The position numbers and the translations under genes are program-made. From the NCBI RefSeq assembly GCF_045862395.1, contig NZ_AP023087.1, forward strand, positions 1,487,404 to 1,511,403: a stretch of 24,000 nucleotides of DNA. The letters run 5' to 3'. Source of the stretch: Marinicellulosiphila megalodicopiae. GTDB lineage: Bacteria; Pseudomonadota; Gammaproteobacteria; Pseudomonadales; Natronospirillaceae. The notes below the pieces were generated by a model that was given only the letters and a program-made list of their open reading frames with translations, had not been told where the DNA came from and searched no databases. Positions 19,252-19,353 of this stretch are shown in pieces; position 1 is the stretch's first letter, and every line of letters starts with the position of its first letter.

Positions 19252-19353
19252 ATGTCCATGTCCATGTCCATGTCCATGACCAAATCCAAATCCAAATCCA
19301 AATCCAAATCCAAATCCAAATCCAAATCCAAATCCAAATCCAAATCCAAATCC
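19252..19353. repeat. Compound hexanucleotide microsatellite: (ATGTCC)4-ATGACC-(AAATCC)12
   Basis: I counted it directly. ATGTCC occupies 19252-19275, ATGACC occupies 19276-19281, and twelve perfect AAATCC units occupy 19282-19353. The plus strand of the AAATCC block contains no G. The repeat is intergenic, starting 49 nt after the 18816..19202 stop and ending 356 nt upstream of the lipoprotein ATG. Confidence 0.97.

What the first reader, a model, noticed from the sequence alone, without database searches (positions are those of the whole stretch)
19252..19353. Compound hexanucleotide microsatellite open in all six frames, with two start-codon-bearing mini-ORFs on opposite strands
The sequence is (ATGTCC)4-ATGACC-(AAATCC)12. 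Because the unit is 6 nt and contains no stop triplet in any phase, copy-number change never breaks a frame. On the plus strand, 19252..19368 reads ATG...TAA and encodes MSMSMSMSMT(KS)12MYWS (38 aa). On the minus strand, 19355..19230 reads ATG...TAA and encodes M(DL)12VMDMDMDMDIIKWLNK (41 aa). AGGA (the complement of 19363-19366) lies 7 nt upstream of that ATG, which is textbook SD spacing. A third minus-strand frame would give (GF)12(GH)5 but has no ATG, GTG or TTG between its upstream stop and the repeat. The array also puts 17 GG doublets at a strict 6-nt phase on the minus strand, while the plus strand of the AAATCC block is G-free. That strand asymmetry is compatible with two-tetrad G-quadruplex or i-motif formation. 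The position, 356 nt upstream of the lipoprotein gene in a promoter-sized AT-rich gap, fits a slipped-strand contingency locus.
Basis: partly seen in the sequence, partly recalled or inferred. Interest (0 to 1): 0.6.

Follow-up and report, generated by a model that had tools for sequence, protein, structure and literature searches.

The report
Non-coding six-base microsatellite, function unproven
This is a real, perfect six-base microsatellite in a non-coding gap of a marine bacterium whose genome holds hundreds of such repeats, and nothing found here shows that it encodes a peptide, forms a G-quadruplex or controls the neighbouring gene.

Summary
(ATGTCC)4-ATGACC-(AAATCC)12 lies at 19252-19353, followed by two decayed units up to 19365. 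All six frames are open and both mini-ORFs exist.

Most of the "special" features follow from the repeat unit itself:
- 37-55% of all hexamer units are open in six frames.
- The CATG palindrome inside the unit gives an ATG on both strands.
- The "AGGA SD" lies inside a decayed repeat unit.

The genome (4.65 Mb, 36% GC, probably Saccharospirillaceae) holds 541 short tandem arrays. Its coding hexamers all encode (Thr-X)n linkers. Its intergenic arrays are depleted from divergent, promoter-only gaps and mostly precede housekeeping genes.

The same hexamer array has arisen in at least 119 other prokaryote species, often as a coding (Asn-Pro)n linker. No G-quadruplex is predicted.

Best reading: a slippage-born, probably length-unstable long simple sequence repeat with no demonstrated function. 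A role as an expression rheostat for the downstream lipoprotein cluster is not excluded (about 15%).

This scan has reached the same verdict on similar intergenic hexamer arrays in other genomes.

The parts
19252..19275 (.). (ATGTCC)4, the older block of the compound microsatellite. Each unit junction forms the palindrome CATG.
   Evidence: TRF: 5.2 copies including ATGACC, 96% identity
19276..19281 (.). Variant unit ATGACC. It creates a TGA in the + strand Cys-Pro/Asn-Pro frame.
19282..19353 (.). (AAATCC)12, a perfect core. It is G-free on the + strand and reads (GGATTT)12 on the - strand.
   Evidence: unique in the genome; second-longest perfect intergenic array
19354..19365 (.). Two decayed ATGTCC-type units, ATGTAC and TGGTCC. 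They supply the minus-strand ATG and the SD-like AGGA.
   Evidence: read directly
19252..19368 (+). Mini-ORF MSMSMSMSMT(KS)12MYWS (38 aa, or 44 aa from TTG 19234). It has no SD and is probably not a gene.
19230..19355 (-). Mini-ORF M(DL)12VMDMDMDMDIIKWLNK (41 aa), with AGGA 7 nt upstream. It is probably not a gene.
19195..19434 (-). Longest open frame through the array (79 aa from stop to stop), containing (GF)12(GH)5. It has no ATG, GTG or TTG start.
18804..19202 (+). A 132-aa orphan ORF that ends 49 nt before the array. It has no Pfam or NCBIfam match and no homologue in the other 37 genomes of the family, so its status as a gene is uncertain.
19710..22907 (+). Lipoprotein of 1065 aa with a lipobox, a (Thr-Glu/Gln)n linker and c-type cytochrome domains. 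It is the first gene of three tandem paralogous two-gene cassettes.
17962..18128 (.). MITE with 23-nt terminal inverted repeats, derived from an IS1595-family element. It marks the left edge of the AT-rich gap that holds the array.

Best explanation
The tract is a compound long simple sequence repeat made by replication slippage in non-coding DNA. An older ATGTCC-type array is now partly decayed at its right edge. It acquired a variant unit, AAATCC, which expanded to 12 perfect copies.

The genome and its lineage carry an unusually heavy load of short tandem repeats. In that genome this tract lies in a long, AT-rich, species-specific gap where selection is weak. It is probably unstable in length (inferred from its purity and copy number). 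It has no dedicated function: it is not translated, and it is not a proven regulator.

Shown: the anatomy of the tract, the genome-wide context, and recurrent independent origin of the same array elsewhere.
Inferred: the slippage mechanism, the length instability and the lack of function.
For: **Anatomy**
- The perfect core is flanked by related and decayed units: ATGTCC x4, ATGACC, then ATGTAC and TGGTCC.

**Genome context**
- The genome holds 541 arrays of period 20 or less, against about 39 TRF rows in a locally shuffled genome.
- Arrays of 5-, 7- and 8-nt units lie almost entirely outside coding sequence. 39 of 46 hexamer arrays are coding, and the 30 examined all encode dipeptide linkers, nearly all (Thr-X)n. 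This pattern is what frame selection acting on random slippage would give.
- Intergenic arrays are depleted from divergent gaps (52 observed, 74 expected) and enriched in convergent gaps (61 observed, 47 expected; p = 0.0016).
- Arrays show no orientation bias relative to transcription (71 against 81).
- Genes downstream of the other intergenic 5-8-nt SSRs are mostly housekeeping: adenosine deaminase, GcvP, anthranilate synthase, a HAD hydrolase, a MATE transporter.

**Recurrence elsewhere**
- (AAATCC) arrays of 5 or more units occur in at least 119 species across many phyla, in unrelated contexts.
- Two relatives carry the same array at non-homologous sites.

**Negative results at this locus**
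- No Rfam match.
- No protein similarity of any frame of the gap to anything else in the genome.
- No conserved counterpart of the locus.
- mutS and mutL are intact, so the repeat load does not come from loss of mismatch repair.
Against: - Absence of evidence is not evidence of absence. No strain, read or transcript data could be examined.
- The tract lies upstream of a surface lipoprotein cluster, the gene class typical of contingency loci.
- It is one of the purest and longest arrays in the genome, which could reflect selection for mutability.
- The genome-wide tests rest on my own rough gene map (codon-usage-scored ORFs of at least 90 aa). They concern the class of arrays, not this one array.
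Confidence: 0.6

Rival explanations
1. The tract is an expression rheostat or contingency locus. Slippage changes its length, which changes promoter geometry, upstream-element spacing or leader length. This tunes or switches the downstream lipoprotein-cytochrome cluster, as the heptamer repeats do upstream of Haemophilus influenzae hmw1A/hmw2A.
For: - The array is perfect and long, so it should be highly mutable.
- It lies on the 5' side of the first of three paralogous surface-lipoprotein cassettes.
- No intrinsic terminator lies between the tract and the gene.
- Precedents for SSRs about 100 bp upstream of a gene are described in PMC2651432.
Against: - The tract is 356 nt from the ATG, with no promoter mapped near it.
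- Promoter-like matches in the gap are no more frequent than in shuffles.
- Cassettes 2 and 3 have short gaps, their own terminators and no SSR.
- Arrays as a class avoid promoter-only gaps and mostly precede housekeeping genes.
- In H. influenzae, hexamer SSRs were judged not to mediate phase variation (PMC2651432).
Confidence: 0.15
2. The tract acts in cis on transcripts that enter from the left. The 77-nt G-free, C-bearing, unstructured (AAAUCC)12 RNA would be a Rho loading (rut) site. It would insulate the lipoprotein cluster from read-through of the orphan ORF and the upstream operon.
For: - The + strand RNA is G-free over 77 nt, is 34% C and is predicted to be unstructured.
- The array (ATGTCC block) starts 49 nt after the stop of the orphan ORF, and the G-free AAATCC block 79 nt after it.
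- No intrinsic terminator lies nearby on the + strand.
- The properties of rut sites (C-rich, G-poor, unstructured, 60-80 nt) come from my own knowledge.
Against: - Arrays in co-directional gaps show no preference for the C-rich strand in the sense orientation (71 against 81), so this is not a class property.
- No transcript data are available.
- The genome holds 65 G-free or C-free stretches of 72 nt or more.
Confidence: 0.07
3. The tract is the remnant of a coding dipeptide linker from a decayed gene, for example an (Asn-Pro)n linker. That is the commonest coding use of this DNA repeat in other genomes.
For: In 44 of 123 (AAATCC)n arrays from other species, the array lies in a long ORF read as NP/PN. 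This genome is rich in linker-encoding hexamer arrays.
Against: - The NP frame is closed by TAA just before the array, by TGA at 19276-19281 and again 17 codons after the array.
- No frame of the 1.57-kb gap resembles any protein encoded in the genome.
- This genome's own linker arrays nearly all encode Thr-X, never NP.
Confidence: 0.05
4. One or more repeat peptides are translated: (DL)12 from the minus strand, (KS)12 from the plus strand, or (GF)12(GH)5 by non-canonical initiation.
For: - The minus-strand ATG has AGGA 7 nt upstream and a weak promoter-like match at 19416-19387.
- The GF/GH frame is the longest open frame, at 79 aa.
Against: - The ATG and AGGA come from the repeat unit itself: the CATG palindrome and the GGAC of GGACAT.
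- Open frames are expected for 37-55% of hexamer units.
- The promoter match is at chance level.
- There is no SD for the + ORF and no canonical start for the GF/GH frame.
- The arrays in G001 and G004 lie in unrelated contexts. Their long GF frame in G004 runs antisense through a real gene.
Confidence: 0.04
5. The tract acts through nucleic-acid structure. Candidates are a two-tetrad G-quadruplex or i-motif in DNA, or the long G.U/A-U hairpin that a minus-strand transcript would form.
For: - The minus strand has 17 GG doublets in strict 6-nt phase.
- As RNA, (GGAUUU)12 folds into a 31-bp hairpin of -34.6 kcal/mol, z = -6.4.
Against: - G4Hunter peaks at 0.72. The usual threshold of about 1.2-1.5 is from my own knowledge.
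- ViennaRNA with G-quadruplexes enabled picks none, with either RNA or DNA parameters.
- With DNA parameters neither strand folds better than shuffled sequence.
- No minus-strand gene or promoter would supply the transcript.
Confidence: 0.04

Closest known systems
Long simple sequence repeats (LSSRs) of prokaryotic genomes (Mrazek, Guo and Shah 2007, PNAS 104:8472; cited through PMC11868660 and PMC4060949; the paper itself could not be read)
   Same: It is a perfect tandem array of a short unit whose total length is far beyond chance. It is non-coding. The genome holds many such arrays with 5-8-nt units, and the host is apparently free-living and marine.
   Different: The array is compound: two related units plus decayed edge units. 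The statement that 5-11-nt LSSRs are typical of non-host-adapted bacteria rests on my memory of that paper and was not checked here.
Haemophilus influenzae hmw1A/hmw2A upstream heptanucleotide repeats (Dawid et al. 1999, as described in PMC2651432)
   Same: Both are long intergenic SSRs of more than 4 nt upstream of a surface-protein gene, with copy numbers in the same range (13-38 there, 12+5 here).
   Different: The hmw repeats lie about 70-106 bp upstream, within the mapped promoter region, and their copy number is shown to change expression. Here the distance is 356 nt, no promoter is mapped and no variation or expression data exist. In the same survey, hexanucleotide SSRs were judged not to mediate phase variation.
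Coding dipeptide-linker hexamer arrays: (Thr-X)n in this genome and (Asn-Pro)n encoded by the same AAATCC repeat in other species
   Same: The DNA repeat class is the same, and (AAATCC)n is the identical repeat. Both have a hexamer unit, so slippage keeps the frame.
   Different: This array lies in no long ORF. The NP frame is closed on both sides.
Intergenic hexamer microsatellites found earlier by this scan in other genomes (e1-1123709, e1-947338, e1-1232197)
   Same: These are perfect hexamer arrays in spacers before genes. Follow-ups confirmed the observation but found no evidence of switching.
   Different: Those arrays have other units, hosts and neighbours. For two of them length differences between strains were seen, which could not be tested here.

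Membership tests
Long simple sequence repeat (LSSR) | Tandem perfect or near-perfect copies of a 1-11-nt unit, with total length beyond what a random model gives | tested here: met
   12.5 copies at 100% identity plus 5.2 copies at 96%. A locally shuffled genome gives 39 TRF rows against 590 real.
Long simple sequence repeat (LSSR) | Non-coding location, for the intergenic subclass | tested here: met
   No ORF longer than 44 aa with a canonical start crosses the array. No protein similarity was found for any frame.
SSR contingency locus / phase-variable promoter | Copy number varies between cells or strains | not testable with these tools
No near relatives were found in the genome or metagenome collections.
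SSR contingency locus / phase-variable promoter | Tract lies inside the ORF, between -35 and -10, or within the mapped promoter or leader | tested here: inconclusive
   The tract is 356 nt upstream of the ATG. Consensus promoter matches are at chance level, and there are no transcript data.
SSR contingency locus / phase-variable promoter | Expression of the neighbouring gene depends on unit number | not testable with these tools
   This needs reporter fusions or isogenic strains.
SSR contingency locus / phase-variable promoter | Genome-wide association of SSRs with promoters and with surface, restriction-modification or LPS genes | tested here: not met
   Arrays are depleted in divergent gaps (52 observed, 74 expected). 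The 17 other genes (18 array-gene pairs) within 400 nt downstream of intergenic 5-8-nt SSRs are mostly metabolic. This particular gene is a lipoprotein.
G-quadruplex-forming repeat | Four or more G-runs with predicted G4 propensity (canonical runs of at least 3 G, or G4Hunter above about 1.2) | tested here: not met
   Only GG doublets are present. G4Hunter peaks at 0.72, and ViennaRNA with gquad enabled selects no quadruplex.
Small-ORF-encoded peptide gene | Start codon with a ribosome-binding site | tested here: inconclusive
   The minus ORF has AGGA 7 nt before its ATG, but both come from repeat units. The plus ORF has no SD.
Small-ORF-encoded peptide gene | Conservation of the ORF in relatives | tested here: not met
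   No homologous locus was found. The same repeat in G001 and G004 has different flanks and frames.
Coding dipeptide-repeat linker | Array embedded in frame in a long ORF | tested here: not met
   All six frames close within 8-27 codons of the array.

The most novel reading that the evidence does not exclude
The G-free (AAAUCC)12 tract is a length-tunable Rho loading site or insulator. Slippage would then set how much read-through from the upstream operon and the orphan ORF reaches a three-cassette cluster of surface cytochrome lipoproteins. This would be a microsatellite rheostat acting on termination rather than on a promoter.
Probability: 0.05. Interest if true: 0.6.

Novelty: new member of a known kind. 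Interest (0 to 1): 0.2.

Why it matters
For this locus alone the result matters little. It removes a tempting over-interpretation (hidden peptides, G-quadruplex, contingency switch) and shows which features are automatic consequences of the repeat unit.

The context has moderate value. A free-living marine gammaproteobacterium with intact mismatch repair carries hundreds of short tandem arrays. The sorting is clean: coding hexamers nearly all encode Thr-X linkers, and units that are not multiples of three are confined to non-coding DNA. That makes the genome a good natural system for studying how slippage and selection shape bacterial microsatellites.

If the tract did tune expression of the lipoprotein-cytochrome cluster, it would be a rare example of a hexamer rheostat outside host-adapted pathogens.

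Tried and rejected
**Searches that found nothing**
- An exact-junction scan of metagenome contigs found nothing.
- Protein-guided scans of genome and metagenome collections with the lipoprotein found no relatives.
- An identity look-up of the lipoprotein found no record.
- Orthologous locus in the genus mate G001: the flanking genes are absent or only 34% identical, so there is no synteny to compare.
- Rfam, at gathering and at permissive thresholds, found nothing relevant.

**Ideas tested and rejected**
- Shared promoter among the three cassettes: their upstream regions do not align.
- Decayed paralogue: tblastn of all gap frames against the genome found no hits.
- Loss of mismatch repair as the cause of repeat richness: rejected, because mutS and mutL are intact.
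- Replication-strand bias of SSR orientation: only a weak trend (24 against 12, p = 0.065).
- Transcription-strand bias, as a test of the Rho idea for the whole class: none.
- G-quadruplex: not predicted.
- GF/GH peptide conserved in relatives: rejected. The long GF frame in G004 runs antisense through a thioredoxin-like gene.

**Literature**
- The Mrazek 2007 paper could not be read.

Full report
**1. The observation**

The sequence reads exactly as described.
- (ATGTCC)4 lies at 19252-19275, ATGACC at 19276-19281 and (AAATCC)12 at 19282-19353.
- Tandem Repeats Finder reports 12.5 copies at 100% identity (score 150) and 5.2 copies at 96% (score 55).
- All six frames are open across the array.
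- With canonical start codons only two ORFs cross it. The minus-strand ORF runs 19355..19230 and encodes M(DL)12VMDMDMDMDIIKWLNK, 41 aa. The plus-strand ORF ends at 19368 and is 38 aa from ATG 19252, or 44 aa from TTG 19234.
- The (GF)12(GH)5 frame is the longest, at 79 aa from stop to stop (19195-19434, minus strand). It has no ATG, GTG or TTG before the repeat.
- AGGA lies 7 nt before the minus-strand ATG.
- The lipoprotein start codon is 356 nt downstream.

**2. Which features follow automatically from the repeat**

- Two more units follow the perfect core: ATGTAC (one mismatch to ATGTCC) and TGGTCC (two mismatches) at 19354-19365. The AAATCC block is therefore embedded in an older ATGTCC-type array that is decaying at its edge. 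This is the usual picture of a microsatellite in which one variant unit has recently expanded.
- ATGTCC repeats create the palindrome CATG at every unit junction, so ATG appears on both strands without any need for selection.
- The minus-strand ATG and its AGGA both lie inside the decayed units.
- Among all primitive hexamer units, 55% are open in all six frames when repeated. Weighted by this genome's base composition the figure is 37%.
- The only promoter-like match on the minus strand (19416-19387) belongs to a set of 7 matches in a region where shuffled sequence gives 8.6.
- These features therefore carry no weight as evidence for coding.

**3. Genome context**

- The window is G000:C1:1487404-1511403. 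The genome is a single contig of 4.65 Mb with 36% GC. By GC skew the origin lies near 4.62 Mb and the terminus near 2.32 Mb.
- Two relatives carry the same hexamer array. They match public records titled 'Pseudomonadales bacterium ALOHA_DT_135' (same genus) and 'uncultured Saccharospirillaceae bacterium' (same family). The host is therefore most likely a marine member of the Saccharospirillaceae. This is an inference.
- TRF finds 541 non-overlapping arrays of period 20 or less. There are 590 rows in the real genome against 39 in a locally shuffled one. [quoted passage not shown]
- I built a rough gene map from codon-usage-scored ORFs: 3624 genes covering 86% of the genome. On that map the arrays sort cleanly.
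  - Units of 5, 7 and 8 nt lie almost entirely outside coding sequence.
  - 39 of 46 hexamer arrays are coding.
  - Nearly all of the 30 coding hexamer arrays examined encode a (Thr-X)n linker such as TE, TQ, TG, TN, TS or TD, and the rest (ES, KE) are other dipeptide linkers. One of them lies inside the lipoprotein gene next to this finding.
- AAATCC would encode KS, NP, IQ, DL, GF or IW, and none of these is a Thr-X linker. The array under study is one of only seven intergenic hexamer arrays. It is the second-longest perfect intergenic array in the genome.

**4. Do the arrays behave like contingency loci?**

- Of 274 intergenic arrays, 52 lie in divergent gaps (promoters only) where 74 are expected from gap length. 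In convergent gaps (terminators only) 61 are found where 47 are expected (p = 0.0016).
- For units of 8 nt or less the figures are 3 against 10.3 and 11 against 6.6.
- Arrays in co-directional gaps show no preferred strand relative to transcription (71 against 81).
- Relative to replication there is only a weak trend (24 against 12, p = 0.065).
- The genes within 400 nt downstream of the other intergenic 5-8-nt SSRs are mainly metabolic or housekeeping. They include adenosine deaminase, an AlkB-like oxygenase, glycine dehydrogenase, a HAD hydrolase, a histidine kinase, TauE, anthranilate synthase and a MATE transporter. Only one is a surface protein.
- mutS and mutL are intact.
- As a class, the arrays look like slippage products that persist where they do least harm, not like a set of promoter switches.
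- Caveat: the gene map is my own approximation, and a class-level result does not settle a single locus.

**5. The locus itself**

- The array lies in a 1.77-kb gap of 24-28% GC between a lipid-metabolism operon and the lipoprotein gene.
- The gap begins with a 167-bp MITE at 17962-18128, which has 23-nt inverted termini. The MITE derives from an IS1595-family element present in ten or more copies.
- A second, inverted MITE copy follows the third lipoprotein cassette.
- The only sizeable ORF in the gap is a 132-aa orphan at 18804-19202. It has no family match and no homologue in the other 37 genomes of the family. The array starts 49 nt after its stop codon.
- Downstream lie three tandem cassettes, each made of a lipoprotein of about 1065-1119 aa with c-type cytochrome domains followed by a protein of about 458 aa. 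The partner gene was seen for the first two cassettes only.
- Cassettes 2 and 3 have gaps of 122-174 nt with their own terminator hairpins and no SSR. The three upstream regions do not align.
- No frame of the gap resembles any other protein encoded in the genome.
- No Rfam family matches.
- The locus has no counterpart in relatives, in one-genome-per-species collections or in metagenome contigs.

**6. The same repeat elsewhere**

- (AAATCC) arrays of 5 or more units were found in at least 119 stretches of species-representative genomes. The hits span Proteobacteria, Firmicutes, Bacteroidota, Cyanobacteria, Verrucomicrobiota, Planctomycetota and archaea.
- Of 123 arrays, 44 lie in long ORFs read as (Asn-Pro)n, 12 as (Lys-Ser)n, and 45 lie in no long ORF. 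The non-coding arrays reach 19 copies.
- In the host's family, 3 of 38 genomes carry the array: G000, G001 and G004. The sites are unrelated. In G001 the array is downstream of a short-chain dehydrogenase gene. In G004 it is downstream of a thioredoxin-like gene, next to other tandem arrays.
- G001 also holds arrays of the control motif CCTAAA, which again points to a repeat-prone lineage.
- The motif therefore arises repeatedly and independently. It is not a conserved element.

**7. Structure**

- With DNA parameters neither strand folds better than shuffled sequence.
- With G-quadruplexes enabled, ViennaRNA selects none. G4Hunter peaks at 0.72, below the customary threshold, which I cite from my own knowledge.
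- As RNA, the minus strand (GGAUUU)12 forms a 31-bp G.U/A-U hairpin of -34.6 kcal/mol, z = -6.4. The plus-strand (AAAUCC)12 is unstructured and G-free over 77 nt.
- The hairpin has no obvious source of transcription.
- The G-free tract has the composition of a Rho loading site. That remains speculation, because the class of arrays shows no sense-strand preference.

**8. Verdict**

- The best reading is a slippage-born, probably length-unstable long simple sequence repeat with no demonstrated function (confidence about 0.6).
- A rheostat for the lipoprotein cluster remains possible (about 0.15). The closest functional precedent is the pair of heptamer tracts about 100 bp upstream of H. influenzae hmw1A/hmw2A (PMC2651432). 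The distance, the lack of a mapped promoter and the class-level statistics all weigh against it here.
- Repeat peptides, a G-quadruplex, a decayed linker and a Rho site each rate 0.04-0.07.
- The kind of element is known (Mrazek et al. 2007, cited through PMC11868660). This scan has also reached the same verdict on similar hexamer arrays in other genomes.
- Interest is low for the locus. The repeat-rich genome as a whole is more interesting.

Noticed in passing
window 6948-7092: A 14-nt unit (TTGAATAGTTCATG) is repeated 10.4 times at 96% identity between two co-directional genes (5750-6886 and 7185-8288). It is the second-highest-scoring intergenic tandem array in the whole genome.
   Followed up: no
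window 17962-18128; also G000:C1:320042-320218, 705518-705685 and 1520483-1520650: A 167-bp MITE with 23-nt terminal inverted repeats. Its ends match a roughly 1.07-kb IS1595-family insertion sequence (DDE_Tnp_IS1595 transposase, 325 aa) present in ten or more copies. Two inverted MITE copies bracket the AT-rich gap plus the three lipoprotein cassettes (about 15 kb).
   Followed up: partly
G000:C1:1507113-1520005 (window 19710 onward): Three tandem paralogous cassettes, each a lipoprotein of about 1065-1119 aa with c-type cytochrome domains and a (Thr-Glu/Gln)n linker. The first two are each followed by a protein of about 458 aa with no family match. More paralogues lie near 1.38-1.40 Mb and 4.61 Mb. 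No close orthologues were found in relatives.
   Followed up: partly
whole genome G000: Nearly all of the 30 coding hexanucleotide arrays examined encode (Thr-X)n dipeptide linkers (TE, TQ, TG, TN, TS, TD); the exceptions encode ES or KE. They reach 59 units (1387106-1387459) and include (ACAGAA)27 in a flagellar-region gene at 1716808-1716974. Arrays with 5-, 7- and 8-nt units lie almost entirely outside coding sequence.
   Followed up: yes
whole genome G000, e.g. 4317460-4317492, 3495323-3495359, 593970-594036, 3797089-3797127: Several intergenic arrays have telomere-like units: (TTTAGGG)4.7, (TAAGGGT)5.3, and (AAACC)13.4 and 7.8. (AAACCC)n arrays are coding QT linkers. No meaning is known.
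   Followed up: no
L002 (G004:C89) 1260-1450: In the Saccharospirillaceae MAG, the (CCAAAT)9 array lies next to a roughly 190-nt patchwork of related 10-nt tandem units (GGCAGGTAAA, GGCAGATGAA, GGCAGGAAAGACAGGAAG), downstream of fur and a thioredoxin-like gene and close to the contig end.
   Followed up: no
window 19240-19370, minus strand: GGAUUU is self-complementary through G.U and A-U pairs. A minus-strand transcript would therefore form a 31-bp hairpin (-34.6 kcal/mol, z = -6.4), while the plus-strand RNA is unstructured and G-free.
   Followed up: yes
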